Shown here piece by piece: positions 16,910 through 53,657 of a stretch of 64,000 bases of DNA. The DNA is from the human T2T-CHM13v2.0 reference genome, Homo sapiens. The position numbers and the translations under genes are program-made. The stretch lies in the NCBI RefSeq assembly GCF_009914755.1, contig NC_060932.1, one strand, 5' to 3'. Below the pieces are notes generated by a model. That model saw only the letters and a list, made by a program, of their open reading frames with translations, made no database searches and was not told the DNA's origin. Position 1 is the first letter of the stretch; every line of letters starts with the position of its first letter.

Positions 16910-16971
16910 CTTGATGAGGTGCTTGTTGACCCACTTGGTGAAGGTTTTCTTCTGCACACGATCCCGCTCAT
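16910..16971 (-). CDS. PLEC: PLEC exon 2, common phase-1 acceptor for all first exons
   Basis: ccccag|ATGAGCGG; (D)ERDRVQKKTFTKWVNKHLIK; 62 nt. Confidence 0.96.
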
Positions 16972-17628
16972 CTGGGGGAGACAAGACCAGCTTACCTGGG
17001 GCCTGGGAGAAGCCCCGGGGGCCCTCAGGTGACCACCGTGCAGACACAGCAGCCTGGCTGGCCAGGTCCTGCCTGGGGAGCCCCAAAGCCTCCCTCAGAT
17101 CACACACTGAGACCCAGGCGCCCTCACCCGCAGCCCAGCCACACAGCAGAGACCCAGGTGCCAGGGGCCCAGGCGCCACCAGGTGCAGCCACCCCACCCC
17201 GGACTCTTCCCCCGAGGAAATGGGAGGGTCCTGGGCGCACCCTGAGCCCAGGGCACACAAGTCCCGTCCTGCAGTCCCCCCCGGCCTCTACAGACTGAGA
17301 CCCAAGCAGGGGTGTGGCAGAGCCAGGGCCCGGGCCCGCTGGGGTGTTGGAAGGGAAGCCGCGTGTGCTGCTGACAGGGCAGCGAACCTTCCCCAGAGCG
17401 CAGAGTTCCTCGCCCTTCCAGGCCCGACATCTGACGCTCGGAGGCCCCCGTCAGCCTCGCGGGCGCCTGTCGGCCCACTCCGTGTTGGGTGGGGATGGCT
17501 GGCCCCCGACCCCCATCTCCAAGACCAGCCCCCCAGCGGTGCCAAGGCTTTCCTGCCACAGGAAGTGGGCCTTCCTCCCGCAGGGGCCCGCCCTGCCTGG
17601 CGGGGGTGCCCGAGGGGAGCCCTGCTAC

Positions 17629-46137: not shown

Positions 46138-47567
<1,430 letters not shown>

Positions 47568-47569
47568 CA

Positions 47570-47919
47570 TTCCTGTCTGCCTGAGCCCCTCAGCCCCCCC
47601 ATTCTCCCTGTCCCCCATCCAGGGCAGATTCCTCTGGGGCTGAGGCTACTGCAGCCTGTGGCAGGAGAGCTCTGGGCACCCTATGGGAGAGGCCTCCGTG
47701 CTGAGGGCTGTGGGCTGGTGACTTAGACAGTCGGCCCAGCTGCCAAGAGGTGTCCAGTCGCCCAGCCCCCCAAGCCTGGCCTGTGACAGCTCATAGAGGC
47801 TGGGCCGTCCTGCCACACCATGGGAGCCTGGAGAGAGACCTGGGGTGGGTGTGGCAGGGCGGGGACAGTTCTAGGAGAGAGTTGTGGCAATGCAGGTGAG
47901 TGGAGGTGAGGCGGTCAGT
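47570..47919 (+). repeat. Left arm of a 350-bp inverted repeat
   Basis: Reverse complement of 48976-49325; 6 mismatches and no indels by manual alignment. Confidence 0.97.
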
Positions 47920-48811
47920 GAAGAAAGAAAGAGCGGCCCAGCAGCAGTCCAGCGTTGTGGGCAGGGGCCTGTCCTGGGGGTCAGGGCATGAGTGCAGGCC
48001 GGGGAGTGGGGAGTGGGGCCAGCCGGGGGCCTGGGCAGCTGGGGATAGAGACTTTAGGTTGTCATGTTAGGGATGGGAGTGGGGCTTAGGGGTGCTGTGA
48101 GGTGGTCCTGGAGAGGGCAGCAGGGGTGAGAATGAGGCCGGGGTGAGTACCGTTGGTGAGTGGGTGGCGTTGGTGTGGGGCAGGGGCCAGGGGTGGGAGG
48201 CCTGCATTGGTCTGGGGGAAAAGCGGGCCTGGAGAGGGGCTGGGTGTGTTGGGTCTCCACAGGGCGTGTGCCCAGCCTGTGGCCTGCACTCTCTTCAGGA
48301 CCCCTTGCCAGCCCTGGGCCTGCCCAGTGCCACTGTGCCTGGCCCCCTCCTCATGTGTCCCCTACTCTCCCCTGTCCTGGACTCTGAGCTTGGTTATCTG
48401 TGTCCCTGGCACTGGCCCCAGGCCCTCAGCCAGCACTGCAGGGTGTTTGCACGGGTGAGTGGGTGATGGCGTAGGGCGTCATCTGCAGTGGTTGGTGCTC
48501 AGCTGGCAGAGGGCAGGCTGGAGGTTATTTGGGGCTCACTGGAGAGGAATTTTGGTCGGTGTTTACTGTCAAAAGTAAAACGCTCCAAAAAAAAAAAAAA
48601 TCAAGCAGGGTGGAAGTATACAAAGAAAAACGGGGAGAGTCACACCTCTGGGTTCAGGCTCCCGGCTGGGGCGATCGCTGTGCATGAGAGAGGGCGGGAG
48701 AGAGCACACGGATTTGGCCGCCCCTTTACAGGGAGCTCAGACTGAGATTTCCTCTGGAGCCACTGGCTTTTCATGTCAGTACCAATTAGGTTGACCTCAT
48801 GCTGATTATTA

Positions 48812-48975
48812 GTATTTTTTAATAGCTTTATTGAGAGGTAATTCACATGCCACACCATTCACCCATTCAAAGCGTCCAATTCAGTGGTTTCAGTAGATTC
48901 GGAGTTGTGTAGCTGTCAATTCCAGGATATTTTCTCACCCAGCCCCTGGCAACACCGCTCTCTTTTCAGTTATGG
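48812..48975 (-). mobile_element. L1 3' terminus (L1MB-like), inverted relative to the L1 body at 46452-47567
   Basis: Minus strand reads ...gttgccaggggctggg...aaccactgaattg...gtgaattacctctcaataaagc. Confidence 0.8.
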
Positions 48976-49325
48976 ACTGGCCGCCTCACCTCCACTCACC
49001 TGCATTGCCACAACTCTCTCCTAGAACTGTCCCCGCCCTGCCACACCCACCCCAGGTCTCTCTCCAGGCTCCCATGGTGCGGCAGAACGGCCCAGCCTCT
49101 ATGAGCTGTCACAGGCCAGGCTTGGGGCGCTGGGCGACTGGACACCTCTTGGCAGCTGGGCCGACTGTCTAAGTCACCAGCCCACAGCCCTCAGCACGGA
49201 GGCCTCTCCCACAGGGTGCCCAGAGCTCTCCCGCCACAGGCTGCAGTAGCCTCAGCCCCAGAGGAATCTGCCCTGGATGGGGGACAGGGAGAATGGGGGG
49301 GCTGAGGGGCTCAGGCAGACAGGAA
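48976..49325 (-). repeat. Right arm of the 350-bp inverted repeat
   Basis: Reverse complement of 47570-47919. Confidence 0.97.
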
Positions 49326-51399
49326 GTTGGCGATGTTCCAAGCGGAGCAGTGGCCGCCTGACTGTACAGGGAAGACCGGGGATTTCCAGGGGAGAGCCAG
49401 GGAATGACGTGTCCAGGGGAGGGTCTGAGACGTTGTGGGGTGGGGGGTGAAGGTCACCGGAGTGAGGGTCAGACAGGGAGTTGTCTGTGAGAGGGCACAG
49501 TGAGGTGGAACCGAGGCAATGCCACAGAGGGGAGGAGGCCAGGAGGCCTAAGCCAGAGCACCTCCTCAGTGCAGGGATCAGCTGGGCAGGGGGCACAGGC
49601 CTGGCCTCCCTGCCCTCCTCAGAACCACCAAATGCTGAGCTGGGCCCAGGACAGGGGCCCGCAGCTGCTTACCATGGAGGGATTTGGGGCTGCCTTGCCG
49701 TCACTGGCTGGCTGGCAAGGGGTGCCATGCCCTCCCACAGTCCCTCCACCCCAGGGACAGGAAGGGCCGGGGCTCCAGCCCTCTAGCAGGTCCAAGGGGC
49801 TCACAGAGGTCAGGCCTGGAAAGGTGTAGGGCACAGGGGCCACCTCTGACCTCCTGCAGGCCCTCCTCAGCCTTGGTCCGTGGCTCCCAGACACAGGTAC
49901 CAGCCCAGCCCCTCCCGTCCCCTTGTCTCAAGCCAGGAGCTAAGGAGACTTGGGGTACCTGGTGTGCTCACGGAGCCTCAGCACCTGCCTTGCTGTTTAG
50001 CCACTCTCAGGCCAGTGCCACACACATGCGGGCAGCTGCACCATCACGTGACAACTCCACTTCAGGCAAGCCCCCCGGCCCCCCTGCCCCCTCACCAGCC
50101 TCCACCACCAAGCCCAGAAGGCAGACAATGGGCCAAGACTGCGAGTGTGCCCAACACCAATCCTGGCCTCCAGAGGAGCTGCGCTTGGGAGGGAGGACCC
50201 TGACAGAGGGTCCCAGCAACCTCCAGGGATCTGTCTGGCTCACCCCTGGATGAATCAGAAGTAGTTCCCACCCCAGGAGGTAGAGGAAAGACAGCCCTGG
50301 GGCCAGGAAAGCCTCAGCACAATGCCCAGAACAGGCTGGGGCACCCCAGGCAGCCCAGCAACCTGACCAGATGAAGAACTCCAGGAGGAAACGATCCTGC
50401 ACAGTTCCCGCACTTTGAACAGAGTGGTCAGCTCAGAAACAGCTCTGTCCTGGGGCTTGCCAGGAGGGCTGGAGCCCAGGTGGGCGGCTGCTTCCCTGCC
50501 CTATACCCCAGCACCCCTCCGGGTGCTCCCTCTAAGGCAGGGCCGGCCATGTAGAGCATGAGCAACAGGCTGCCCGCTCCAGGCCTCCCCAAGGGTGCAG
50601 GAGTGTCTCCCCTGGCCCGAATGAACTAGTCACACAGGCAAAGCGGCTGGGCACAGCACTGTCAAAGAGAGCCACAGCAGTACATCCACCCTGCCCCAGA
50701 GCCGTCGCTGGAGGACGCCTGAAGGAGATGAGTTCGGGGCACCATGAAACCTACCCAGCTGGGCAAGGTTGTGGTGGAGAGCGGCACCACGGGGCCCCAG
50801 CAGGACCTCTCTCCCTGAGCTGCCCTTGGGGGCAGAGCCAGCAAAACCAGCCACGTGGAGCTGGAGTCTGCTCTGATCGGCTCTGCCTGGGGGCCCCCAC
50901 CGCGACCCTCCCCAGCAGCTCAGTCCCTTGCTCCTAAGCCTCTGCAGGCCGGCAGCCAATGCTGTGTCCACAACCGCCTGGAGCCGGGCGACCCAGGCTG
51001 AGCCAGGCAGCTGGGCTGCAAGAATGGCCGGTGGGACCAGGACCTGGGAGGGTCCAGGGGCTCCCCGTGGGCGTGGACTAGGGCAAGGGGGTCTGCCGAG
51101 GCATCAAGCAGGTGGGCAGGCCACTCTGATGCTCCCCTAGAGAGGAAGGAGGGGCCACCCTGACCCCTAGCCCACAGCTGTCCCCTAGTGAACAGAGAAG
51201 GGGTGTGGGGGGGGTGCCCTGCCAAGGAAGGGTGGCAGCCCAGGCCCTCGCCAGTTTAGGGAGGTGAGGAGAGGCGGCAACTATGTGACCCATTGCCAGG
51301 CGGCGGAGCTGCCCCTGTTCCATGCAGACGCGCCCCAGAGGTGGGGCAGGGGATGGCTCAGCCTTGACCCATGTGTCTGCTGGCCACAGACACCGGATC

Positions 51400-52160
51400 C
51401 TGGCTCAGACAGCCGACCCCGACAAGCCCTGAGCGCCCCCACCCGCCCGCGGCCCACCCCACCCACCCGAGCCGCGCGATGCCCTATTAAGGGCATGGCC
51501 TCGGGGGCTCAGCGGAGCGAGTCCTCCCCTTCCCTAGGCACTGGCAGCCGTTGGGGGCGATCCAGGCGGACGAGGCCGGCGGAGTGGCCGCGCTCGGGCC
51601 GGCGATCGGGACCGCCACCGTGGACGACAAGGTGCTCGGCGGCTGGGCTGTCAGGAGCGGCCCGACAGGCAGCGGGACGGGGGGCCGTACCTTTGTACTT
51701 CTCGCGCACCTCCTCGTAGGCCTGGATGAAGTCCTGCTCGTCGGGCAGCGGGCCGGCCATGCCGGCGGGCGCGGGGCGCGGGGTGCAGCGGAGCCTCCAG
51801 CACCCGGCGGCCACTCTGTCCCCGCGGCCGCGCGCGCCGCTTAAAGAGGCCGCCCCCGCCCCGCCCCCGCCCCGCCCCCGCACCCAGGATGCCCCACGGG
51901 CGGGGCGGGGCCGGGGCCGCCGCGGCCGGGCAGAGGGAGCCGCGTCTGGGCCCCTCCCGGCGGGCCGGTTCCGCGGGCTCCGAGTCCCGCACGCACGCCC
52001 TTTCCCGTTCTCGCCCGGGTCGCGGCCGCCGACACCGCGGTCGCCCGGGGGTCCTCGGGTGGCCCCCGCCCAGGGGCGGCCGCGACCTGTCTGTTCCCCG
52101 CCGGGCCGGCGACCTGCCTCCGAGACGCTCCCCTGCCCGCCCCCCACCTTGCTTCCTGCG
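51400..52160. promoter_or_regulatory. CpG island / promoter of PLEC exon 1f
   Basis: Dense CpG; tandem GC boxes at 51850-51915; AT-rich ttaaa at 51841. Confidence 0.85.
51691..51760 (-). CDS. PLEC: PLEC alternative first exon 1f (MAGPLPDEQDFIQAYEEVREKYK)
   Basis: ATG...AAAG|gtacgg; 70 nt. Confidence 0.94.
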
Positions 52161-53464: not shown

Positions 53465-53657
53465 CTGCGATGCGAATGACCGCCCGCTCAGCTGGGTCCA
53501 GGACACTCCCGTTGCTCCCAGCGCCACCCCCGCTGCGCCGGCTCCGCTGCGTTTTCCCAAGGTTCCAGGGCAGTGTGTCCCCAGGGCTGGGCGAGCCACT
53601 GCTTCCATTGGAGACATCTTCAGAGACTGCCCGGACCTCAGCGTCCTCACCCGACAT
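53465..53657 (-). CDS. PLEC: PLEC exon 1c (coding part; own acceptor at 53663)
   Basis: MSGEDAEVRAVSEDV...AVIRIA + G|gtaact; ccttccag|GAGGCCATG. Confidence 0.94.

What the first reader, a model, noticed from the sequence alone, without database searches (positions are those of the whole stretch)
47570..49325. 350-bp near-perfect inverted duplication of non-repeat DNA inside the PLEC 1c/1f intron
Seen: 47570-47919 is the reverse complement of 48976-49325, with 6 mismatches in 350 bp (~98%), no indels and a 1,056-bp spacer. The arms do not resemble Alu, L1 or LTR sequence. In the PLEC-sense (minus-strand) RNA, 4 of the 6 mismatches become G-U wobbles. Inference: 1c/1f pre-mRNAs could fold a ~350-bp almost perfect duplex, much cleaner than typical inverted Alu pairs. 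That would make an isoform-specific substrate for ADAR, Dicer or dsRNA sensors. At the DNA level the arms could support hairpin/cruciform formation or NAHR re-inversion of the spacer.
Basis: partly seen in the sequence, partly recalled or inferred. Interest (0 to 1): 0.85.

Follow-up and report, generated by a model that had tools for sequence, protein, structure and literature searches.

The report
Inversion scar inside a PLEC intron
A real, genome-unique 350-base inverted repeat in an upstream intron of the human plectin gene is most likely the scar of a small old inversion that copied its own breakpoint; it was already listed in print as a possible double-stranded RNA that is barely expressed, so it is fairly ordinary.

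Summary
47570-47919 is the reverse complement of 48976-49325: 344 of 350 bases match, there are no indels and the spacer is 1,056 bp. The arm occurs only at these two places in the whole CHM13 genome.

The new result is the origin. An old L1 element is split. Its 5' piece ends at the outer edge of the left arm. Its 3' piece lies inverted against the inner edge of the right arm. In 10 of 10 other L1 copies that hold both pieces, the pieces are colinear. An 8-nt inverted duplicate marks the L1 breakpoint. This layout, A-Y-rc(X)-rc(M)-rc(Y)-X-D, is the known signature of an inversion that duplicates its breakpoints (Ranz 2007). The event is roughly 3-37 Myr old.

The repeat sits in the first intron of the 1c and 1f transcripts. 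The arms are predicted to pair at 347 of 350 positions.

The locus is already a row in Barak et al. 2020, Table S8 (hg19). There it has FPKM 0.003, an editing signal consistent with about one read-base per arm, and none in muscle. Function as a dsRNA element is unsupported. Interest is low to moderate.

The parts
46902..47569 (+). Segment A: 5' piece of an old L1 (3' part of ORF2 and the start of the 3' UTR), L1 sense on the + strand. It ends at the outer edge of the left arm.
   Evidence: 5,681 first-look candidates in the genome, 40 scored, 71-75% identity over 46962-47435; all 23 other L1 loci match within 46902-47462, and one (L026) matches to 47540; the profile HMM matches 47302-47451 at E 1.7e-23. 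The last ~30-120 nt are assigned to L1 on weaker pairwise evidence.
47560..47567 (+). Y: 8-nt word at the L1 breakpoint. Its reverse complement recurs at 48968-48975. It is followed by 2 unexplained bases (47568-47569).
   Evidence: An 8-nt shared word occurs in 123 of 20,000 random pairs of 20-mers from the window. Pairwise alignments to L006 and L007 place both copies at the same L1 site.
47570..47919 (.). Left arm, rc(X): inverted copy of the right arm.
   Evidence: It has 6 CpG against 9 in the right arm. All three CpG-involving differences are CpG in the right arm and non-CpG in the left.
47920..48789 (.). Unique part of the spacer, rc(M). It is single-copy DNA, now inverted relative to the ancestral order.
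   Evidence: 47920-48610 has 1 of 1 place in the genome (itself); no L1 profile hit on either strand; no Rfam family. The inversion is inferred from the adjoining L1 piece.
48790..48975 (-). 3' piece of the same old L1 (3' UTR with AATAAA and an A-rich end), L1 sense on the minus strand, so inverted relative to segment A. It abuts the inner edge of the right arm.
   Evidence: 513 candidates, 40 scored, 75-89% identity over 48798-48940; rc(48940-48809) matches HMM nodes 397-541 at E 2.4e-26. L006 matches up to 48970; 10 of 10 loci that hold both pieces have them colinear, opposite to the window.
48968..48975 (.). rc(Y): inverted copy of the 8-nt word, at the new junction with the right arm.
48976..49325 (.). 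Right arm, X. It is probably in the ancestral position, contiguous with the flank at 49326 onward.
   Evidence: Position inferred from the model A-Y-rc(X)-rc(M)-rc(Y)-X-D.
51691..51760 (-). Coding part of PLEC first exon 1f (approximate ends), upstream of the repeat in the gene's sense.
   Evidence: the minus-strand translation contains the 1f N-terminal peptide. The search motif and the exon end were recalled, not taken from the hub table.
53465..53657 (-). Coding part of PLEC first exon 1c (approximate ends), upstream of the repeat in the gene's sense.
   Evidence: same basis.

Best explanation
The inverted repeat is the scar of one local rearrangement. The ancestral order was A-Y-M-X-D. A and the start of M were one continuous old L1 element. 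Y was 8 bp inside that L1, and X was 350 bp of unique DNA about 1 kb downstream.

The stretch Y-M-X was inverted. The sequences at the two breakpoints were copied in inverted orientation, 350 bp at one and 8 bp at the other. This gives today's order A-Y-rc(X)-rc(M)-rc(Y)-X-D. Two mechanisms give this product: two pairs of staggered breaks that are filled in and end-joined (the Ranz 2007 model), or two replicative template switches.

Shown: the repeat, its uniqueness in the genome, the opposite orientation of the two L1 pieces, and their exact abutment to the outer-left and inner-right arm edges. Inferred: the single-step mechanism, the age and neutrality. The age is about 7-17 Myr from 1.7% arm divergence, with a Poisson range of about 3-37 Myr, and would be older if the arms have gene-converted.

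As a by-product, PLEC 1c and 1f pre-mRNAs carry two 350-nt complementary stretches that can pair in the nucleus. I see no evidence that this is used for anything.
For: - Repeat: 344 of 350 match, no indel.
- Copy number: the arm is found at 2 of 2 genomic places, both here. The spacer 47920-48610 is single-copy.
- Left outer flank: an old L1 in sense orientation.
- Stretch just inside the right arm: the L1 3' end in antisense orientation.
- Comparison with other copies: of 23 other L1 loci examined, 10 hold both pieces, and in all 10 the pieces are colinear in one orientation, 200-305 bp apart in 8 and about 640 bp apart in 2. The window therefore has one piece flipped.
- Position: the two L1 pieces touch the arms exactly where the model A-Y-rc(X)-rc(M)-rc(Y)-X-D puts them.
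- 8-nt word: it ends the 5' piece (47560-47567) and recurs inverted at the start of the 3' piece (48968-48975). The chance of such a word between two 20-mers is 123 of 20,000.
- Pairwise alignments to L006 and L007 place both 8-mers at the same L1 site.
- The L1 profile does not hit the arms, the spacer on either strand, or the right flank at E up to 100.
- Published model: 17 of 29 Drosophila inversions carry such inverted duplications, with a median of 321 bp (PMC1885836, passages read). The same reasoning was applied to human X/Y (PMC2817401, passages read).
Against: - No outgroup genome was available, so the ancestral single-copy state is inferred from the L1 alone.
- Exact contiguity of the two L1 pieces at the junction is not proven. 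The poorly conserved middle of the L1 profile has 243 nodes, but the window offers only 153 nt there. Up to about 90 nt are therefore deleted somewhere.
- The tail 47453-47569 is assigned to L1 only by weak alignments. For L005 and L009 the 70-nt tail aligned elsewhere, with scores (9) no better than the controls (7-12).
- 13 of the 23 L1 loci showed only the 5' piece.
- Two bases (47568-47569) between Y and the arm are unexplained.
- The 8-mer alone has about a 0.6% chance probability. That is suggestive, not decisive.
- The one-step and two-step routes give the same product and cannot be told apart from one genome.
Confidence: 0.6

Rival explanations
1. Two steps. First an inverted copy of X was inserted into the L1, with an 8-bp target duplication. 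This gave A-Y-rc(X)-Y-M-X-D. Later, homologous recombination (NAHR) between the two arms flipped the interior. The orientation may have flipped more than once and could still vary among people.
For: This route gives exactly the same present structure, including the inverted 8-mer. Arms of 350 bp at 98% identity, with perfect runs of 93, 83 and 99 bp, are within reach of homologous recombination. Human inversions between inverted repeats more than 90% identical recur often (PMC6748972, passages read).
Against: It needs two events instead of one, and no known process accounts for the first. The arm has no poly(A) at either end, so it is not an L1-mediated retro-insertion. It has no other copies, so it is not a transposon. 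The shortest repeats in the cited human NAHR set are 654 bp, longer than these arms.
Confidence: 0.22
2. There was no inversion. The L1 3' piece at 48790-48975 is an independent, 5'-truncated L1 insertion in the opposite orientation. The arm was simply duplicated in inverted orientation next to a 3'-truncated L1.
For: Short 5'-truncated L1 3' ends are very common (general knowledge). The junction-level contiguity of the two pieces is not proven.
Against: The 3' piece supplies just the part that the 5' piece lacks, to within about 90 nt. Both pieces end exactly at arm edges, on the sides the inversion model predicts. They also share the 8-nt word at those ends. Independent events would have to coincide in all three respects.
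Confidence: 0.08
3. Whatever its origin, the repeat is kept because the 350-bp RNA duplex does something in PLEC 1c/1f pre-mRNA, such as ADAR recruitment, small-RNA production or control of first-intron processing.
For: The arms are predicted to pair at 347 of 350 positions in PLEC-sense RNA, and at 348 of 350 with 600-nt flanks. 4 of the 6 differences are G-U in that strand. Barak 2020 Table S8 gives non-zero editing indices of 5.56% and 6.67% in the 15-tissue pool.
Against: - The 4:1 strand split of transitions is not significant (0.375).
- Expression is FPKM 0.0031, below that paper's own 0.01 cut-off. In muscle editing is 0 and FPKM is 0.00065.
- The indices fit a single edited base per arm.
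- In unstranded data, reads mapped to the wrong arm could mimic A-to-G, because 3 of the 6 arm differences are A versus G (inference).
- No Rfam family matches.
- CpG observed/expected of 0.16-0.24 is ordinary methylated DNA.
- The young age means identity needs no selection.
- Two full-text searches linking plectin/PLEC with an inverted repeat found nothing relevant: with A-to-I and intron, 0 papers; with inversion and breakpoints, 5 papers, none on this locus.
Confidence: 0.05
4. The repeat is an assembly artefact or a private feature of CHM13.
For: None found.
Against: hg19, an independent clone-based assembly, has the same 350/1056/350 geometry and the same 98.2857% identity (Barak 2020 Table S8).
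Confidence: 0.01

Closest known systems
Inversions flanked by inverted duplications of ancestrally unique breakpoint sequence (staggered-break model of Ranz et al. 2007, PMC1885836; applied to human X/Y by Lemaitre et al. 2009, PMC2817401)
   Same: Unique, non-repetitive DNA is duplicated in inverted orientation at the two ends of an inverted segment. The duplication size of 350 bp is close to the Drosophila median of 321 bp. Sequences from both breakpoints are duplicated (350 bp and 8 bp), as in 6 of the Drosophila cases.
   Different: The inverted segment is tiny, about 1.06 kb between the arms, against hundreds of kb to Mb. The ancestral state here is inferred from a split L1, not from outgroup genomes. 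The locus sits inside a human intron.
Human polymorphic inversions mediated by NAHR between inverted repeats (Giner-Delgado et al. 2019, PMC6748972)
   Same: Highly identical inverted repeats bracket a short invertible segment. The ratio of repeat length to inversion length is high (0.33), a feature that the paper links to recurrence.
   Different: The arms (350 bp) are shorter than any in that set (654 bp to 24.2 kb). No evidence of polymorphism or recurrence is available here. In my reading the repeats are a product of the inversion, not its cause.
Long (over 300 bp), tight (over 96%) inverted duplicated sequences in human pre-mRNAs: putative dsRNAs of Barak et al. 2020 (PMC7006430, Table S8)
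   Same: It is literally one of the 197 listed structures: chr8 145043449-145043799 / 145044855-145045205 (hg19), 350 bp, 98.2857%.
   Different: The paper lists it by coordinates only. PLEC is not named in its text or supplements, and its origin is not discussed.
Inverted Alu pairs in introns and 3' UTRs, the main ADAR substrates
   Same: Intramolecular complementary stretches of about 300 nt within one transcript.
   Different: This repeat is not a mobile element and has only two copies in the genome. It is 98.3% complementary. The Alu-sized pairs of this window reach at most 91.1%, and the median of all 59 pairs is 79.6%.
L1 twin-priming inversions
   Same: An L1 whose two parts lie in opposite orientations.
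   Different: Twin priming puts the inverted 5' part directly upstream of the 3' part at the time of insertion, and it does not duplicate flanking unique DNA. Here the parts are separated by the left arm and 870 bp of unique DNA that lies beyond the L1 poly(A) end. The 98% arms are also far younger than the L1, which is about 70-75% identical to other copies. Rejected.

Membership tests
Inversion with inverted duplications at its breakpoints (staggered-break / template-switch class) | A segment is inverted relative to the ancestral order | tested here: met
   The two pieces of one old L1 are in opposite orientation in the window. They are colinear in 10 of the 10 other copies that hold both pieces, out of 23 examined. 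The profile HMM confirms the identities and strands. The ancestral order is inferred from the L1, not from an outgroup.
Inversion with inverted duplications at its breakpoints (staggered-break / template-switch class) | Ancestrally unique sequence is present twice, in inverted orientation, at the two ends of the inverted segment, in the layout A-Y-rc(X)-rc(M)-rc(Y)-X-D | tested here: met
   The arms are unique in the genome. The 5' L1 piece abuts the outer left edge and the inverted 3' L1 piece abuts the inner right edge. The 8-nt Y lies at 47560-47567 and rc(Y) at 48968-48975.
Inversion with inverted duplications at its breakpoints (staggered-break / template-switch class) | The outgroup shows the uninverted, single-copy state | not testable with these tools
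   No primate genome is held; the genome search states that the window's genome has no relatives here.
Recurrent NAHR (flip-flop) inversion | Inverted repeats long and identical enough for homologous recombination | tested here: inconclusive
   350 bp, 98.3% identity, perfect runs up to 99 bp. This is shorter than the 654-bp minimum of the human NAHR set.
Recurrent NAHR (flip-flop) inversion | Both orientations are present among haplotypes or species | not testable with these tools
   Only one haplotype (CHM13) is readable. The hg19 row gives the arms, not the spacer orientation.
ADAR-edited long intramolecular dsRNA | Both arms lie in one transcription unit and can pair | tested here: met
   Exons 1c and 1f lie upstream of the repeat and exon 2 downstream, all on the minus strand. 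In the minimum-free-energy (MFE) fold, 347 of 350 arm positions pair with their cognate partner. This is a prediction only.
ADAR-edited long intramolecular dsRNA | Clustered A-to-G changes in RNA from expressing tissues | tested here: inconclusive
   No RNA data can be analysed here. Barak 2020 Table S8 gives indices of 5.56% and 6.67% at FPKM 0.0031 in 15 tissues, consistent with about 1 of 18 and 1 of 15 observations, and 0 and 0 in muscle.
Dispersed repeat or DNA transposon with terminal inverted repeats | Multiple copies in the genome | tested here: not met
   The arm has 2 of 2 places, both local. The spacer has 1 of 1. Very old repeats (MIR or L2 grade) could escape this search: the L1 tail 47400-47569 also found only itself.
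Dispersed repeat or DNA transposon with terminal inverted repeats | A direct target-site duplication flanks the outer ends | tested here: not met
   The outer flanks of the two arms show no shared word.

The most novel reading that the evidence does not exclude
The 1.06-kb segment is a hominid-specific invertible switch that still flips by recombination between the 350-bp arms. Human haplotypes would then differ in its orientation. In tissues that use the 1c (neural) and 1f (muscle) promoters, the 350-bp near-perfect intronic duplex would be a genuine ADAR target. It could become immunogenic or inhibitory when introns are retained or lariats accumulate.
Probability: 0.08. Interest if true: 0.55.

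Novelty: new member of a known kind. Interest (0 to 1): 0.27.

Why it matters
- It gives a clean, kilobase-scale human example of an inversion that made its own flanking inverted repeats. That mechanism is documented mainly for large Drosophila inversions. It warns that inverted repeats at inversion breakpoints are not always the cause of the inversion.
- It explains one of the 197 long, tight putative dsRNAs of human pre-mRNAs. Others in that list may also be breakpoint duplications rather than mobile elements.
- For PLEC itself the practical meaning is small. The repeat is a possible source of mis-mapping and false A-to-G calls, and a possible site of small structural variation in the 1c/1f intron.

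Tried and rejected
- Common repeat or transposon with terminal inverted repeats: rejected. There are only two copies in the genome and no target-site duplication.
- Processed retrocopy ending at the A15 tract 48585-48600: rejected. 47920-48610 has no other copy in the genome, and the homology of the arm does not stop at the splice-donor-like site.
- L1 twin priming: rejected on layout and age.
- Known RNA families: 0 matches at E up to 1 in 46900-49900.
- Exact mapping of the L1 junction failed three ways. A genome search with 47400-47569 found only itself. The profile HMM aligned only the conserved ends. 70-nt pairwise alignments were informative for 2 of 4 copies.
- MAFFT --addfragments misplaced the head of the 3' piece.
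- Literature, two full-text searches: PLEC with inversion, inverted repeats and breakpoints gave 5 papers, none on this locus; plectin with A-to-I, intron and inverted repeat gave 0 papers.
- Literature, inversion catalogues: in a search on PLEC, InvFEST, HsInv and polymorphic inversions, 49 papers held at least 2 of the 4 terms, and none of the 12 listed held PLEC.
- Literature, PLEC in individual papers: PLEC is absent from the two supplement files held as text for PMC12695637. It is also absent from the main text of the dsRNAscan preprint PMC11838218, whose supplements I could not see.
- Microinversion paper PMC8755829: it concerns 17-33-nt events, a different scale.
- Weak similarity of the arm to 17502-17603 (65% over 105 nt, E 6e-4): treated as GC-rich noise and not followed.
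Full report
**Observation.** The inverted repeat is exactly as described. The arms are 47570-47919 and 48976-49325, 350 nt each, 1,056 nt apart. There are six mismatches and no indel: five transitions and one C/G transversion. In PLEC-sense (minus-strand) RNA four of the six are G-U pairs. In plus-strand RNA only one is. A 4:1 split of five transitions is not significant (two-sided binomial 0.375, hand calculation). A gapped comparison extends weak similarity inward to 47936/48955 (371 columns, 96%). Among 59 inverted pairs of at least 150 nt in the window this is by far the cleanest: 98.3%, against 91.1% for the next and a median of 79.6%. The other pairs are Alu-sized stretches in the masked regions.

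**Copy number.** A search of the whole CHM13 genome with the arm returns two places of two candidates, the arms themselves. The spacer 47920-48610 returns only itself. The arms are therefore not a dispersed repeat at this sensitivity. The caveat is that very old repeats can escape the search: the diverged L1 tail 47400-47569 also found only itself. Rfam has nothing in 46900-49900.

**What flanks the arms.**
- The left outer flank is an old L1. The stretch 46962-47435 matched 5,681 first-look candidates, of which 40 were scored at 71-75% identity.
- The stretch just inside the right arm is an L1 3' end. 48798-48940 matched 513 candidates, of which 40 were scored.
- I compared both pieces with 23 other L1 loci from the same genome (six, seventeen fetched).
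  - All 23 hold the 5' piece and 10 hold both pieces.
  - In all 10 the two pieces are colinear and in the same orientation, 200-305 bp apart in eight and about 640 bp apart in two.
  - In the window they are in opposite orientations.
- A profile built from eight of these copies matches 47302-47451 on the plus strand (nodes 4-153, E 1.7e-23). It also matches the reverse complement of 48940-48809 (nodes 397-541, E 2.4e-26).
- That profile gives no hit at E up to 100 in the left arm, the spacer on either strand, or the right flank.

**Reading of the structure.** One old L1 has been cut. Its 5' part ends at the outer edge of the left arm. Its 3' part, with poly(A) signal and A-rich end, lies inverted with its cut end against the inner edge of the right arm. 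An 8-nt word at 47560-47567 ends the 5' part and recurs as its reverse complement at 48968-48975. Such a word is shared by 123 of 20,000 random pairs of window 20-mers. Alignments to two copies (L006, L007) put both words at the same L1 site. For the other two copies the short alignments were no better than the controls.

The present order is therefore A-Y-rc(X)-rc(M)-rc(Y)-X-D, derived from an ancestral A-Y-M-X-D. Here X is the 350-bp arm sequence and Y the 8-bp word. This is the signature of an inversion that duplicates its own breakpoint sequences in inverted orientation.
- Ranz et al. 2007 (PMC1885836, passages read) explained it by two pairs of staggered breaks, fill-in and end joining.
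  - They found it at 17 of 29 Drosophila inversions, with a median duplication of 321 bp.
  - In six cases both breakpoints were duplicated.
- Lemaitre et al. 2009 (PMC2817401, passages read) used the same logic on human sex chromosomes. They preferred the one-event model on parsimony.
- Two replicative template switches would give the same product.

**Weak points.**
- No outgroup genome is available.
- The middle of the L1 profile (243 nodes) is poorly conserved, and the window has only 153 nt there. Exact contiguity at the cut is therefore not shown, and up to about 90 nt are missing somewhere.
- Two bases (47568-47569) are unexplained.
- A two-step history gives the identical product: an inverted copy of X inserted into the L1 with an 8-bp target duplication, followed by a flip by homologous recombination between the arms.
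  - I rank it lower because the first step has no known mechanism. The arm has no poly(A) and no other copies.
- Independent insertion of a second, truncated L1 would need three coincidences: complementary truncation points, both at arm edges, and a shared 8-mer.

**Age.** The arm divergence is 1.74% after K2P correction.
- With recalled human substitution rates of 0.5-1.2e-9 per site per year, this gives 7-17 Myr. The Poisson range on six differences is about 3-37 Myr.
- The event would be older if the arms have gene-converted. This predicts an event in the ape lineage.
- The L1 itself is far older, at about 70-75% identity to other copies.
- All three differences that involve a CpG are CpG in the right arm and non-CpG in the left, which has 6 CpG against 9.
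- CpG observed/expected is 0.16-0.24. The arms are ordinary methylated DNA, not a CpG island.

**Transcript context.**
- Minus-strand translation places the coding part of exon 1f near 51.7 kb and exon 1c near 53.6 kb, both upstream of the repeat. Exon 1 lies near 29.0 kb and exon 2 at 16,966-16,971, both downstream (short recalled motifs were used to find them).
- The hub table cuts off four exons beyond 29204. I cannot exclude that one of them lies in the repeat.
- ViennaRNA pairs 347 of 350 arm positions with their cognate partner in the 1,756-nt PLEC-sense RNA (MFE -1208.6 kcal/mol). The figure is 348 of 350 with 600-nt flanks, and 344 of 350 on the other strand. This is a thermodynamic prediction only.

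**Prior knowledge.** Barak et al. 2020 (PMC7006430; passages and supplement 1, parts 3-4, read) list 197 human inverted duplicated sequences longer than 300 bp and over 96% identical within RefSeq pre-mRNAs.
- One row reads chr8 145043449-145043799 / 145044855-145045205, length 350, identity 98.2857%. That is 350/1056/350 with 344 of 350 matching, which is this repeat in hg19.
- As a side check from memory, not from a call: the hg19 5' end of PLEC that I recall is 5,708 bp beyond the row's last base. That equals 55033 minus 49325 in the window.
- The row's values for the 15-tissue pool:
  - Editing indices are 5.56% and 6.67% and FPKM is 0.0031.
  - Inosines per transcript are 7.3 and residual identity is 96.2%.
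- For the muscle pool the values are 0 and 0, at FPKM 0.00065.
- At the paper's conversion (1 FPKM = 88.64-fold coverage), FPKM 0.0031 is about 0.27-fold coverage. The indices then fit one edited base among about 18 and about 15 adenosine observations (my arithmetic).
- Three of the six arm differences are A versus G. A read placed on the wrong arm in unstranded data would therefore mimic editing (inference).
- The paper names the locus only by coordinates. PLEC does not occur in its text or supplements.

**Other literature.**
- Full-text searches that link PLEC or plectin with inversions or editing at an inverted repeat found nothing relevant.
- PLEC is absent from the supplement files held for PMC12695637.
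- Giner-Delgado et al. 2019 (PMC6748972, passages read) show that human inversions between inverted repeats of 654 bp to 24.2 kb recur. Flipping here is conceivable but untested, and the arms are shorter than any in that set.

**Verdict.** The claim that a duplex could form is supported as a prediction and is already in print as a catalogue entry. The functional reading (ADAR, Dicer or sensor substrate) has no support, and the expression data count against its importance. Cruciform formation across a 1-kb spacer is unlikely on general grounds. The new element is the origin: a kilobase-scale inversion that made its own 350-bp and 8-bp inverted breakpoint duplications. This is a new member of a known kind, and interest is low to moderate.

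Noticed in passing
window 49075-49000 (minus strand, inside the right arm): In PLEC sense the right arm holds an ATG followed by 25 open codons. They end at a consensus donor (CAG|GTGAGT) with one extra G. That is the same phase in which the known first exons join exon 2. It could be a cryptic or unlisted first exon, or chance. The hub table hides four exons beyond 29204.
   Followed up: no
window 47920-47936 and 48955-48967: The two ends of the inverted unique segment are themselves a short imperfect inverted repeat of about 14 purine-rich nt with one gap. This is why gapped blastn extends the arms to 371 columns. In the ancestral order these would have sat next to the two breakpoints. It may be microhomology or chance.
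   Followed up: partly
window 48574-48600: An A15 tract is preceded by AGTAAA about 10 nt upstream, which looks like a retrocopy tail. The sequence before it is single-copy in the genome. In the inferred ancestral orientation it would be a T tract.
   Followed up: partly
window 47612-47715 / 49180-49283 versus 17502-17603: The arm has a weak similarity (65% over 105 nt, E 6e-4) to a stretch beside alternative PLEC exons near 17.4-17.6 kb. It is probably GC-rich noise.
   Followed up: no
window 46902-47569 and 48790-48975: Two old L1 fragments of about 670 and 190 bp are not among the stretches that the hub lists as masked in NCBI's file. 'Unmasked' therefore does not mean non-repeat in this window.
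   Followed up: yes
Barak et al. 2020, Table S8 (PMC7006430, supplement 1): Many of the rows read (parts 3-4 of the file) have the same geometry as this locus: arms of 300-700 bp, spacers of 0.5-5 kb and identity of 98% or more. Some may be further breakpoint duplications of small inversions rather than mobile-element pairs.
   Followed up: no
window 47663, 47767, 47815 versus 49232, 49128, 49080: All three arm differences that touch a CpG keep the CpG in the right arm and have lost it in the left arm (6 versus 9 CpG). This hints that the left copy has decayed faster or is more heavily methylated.
   Followed up: partly
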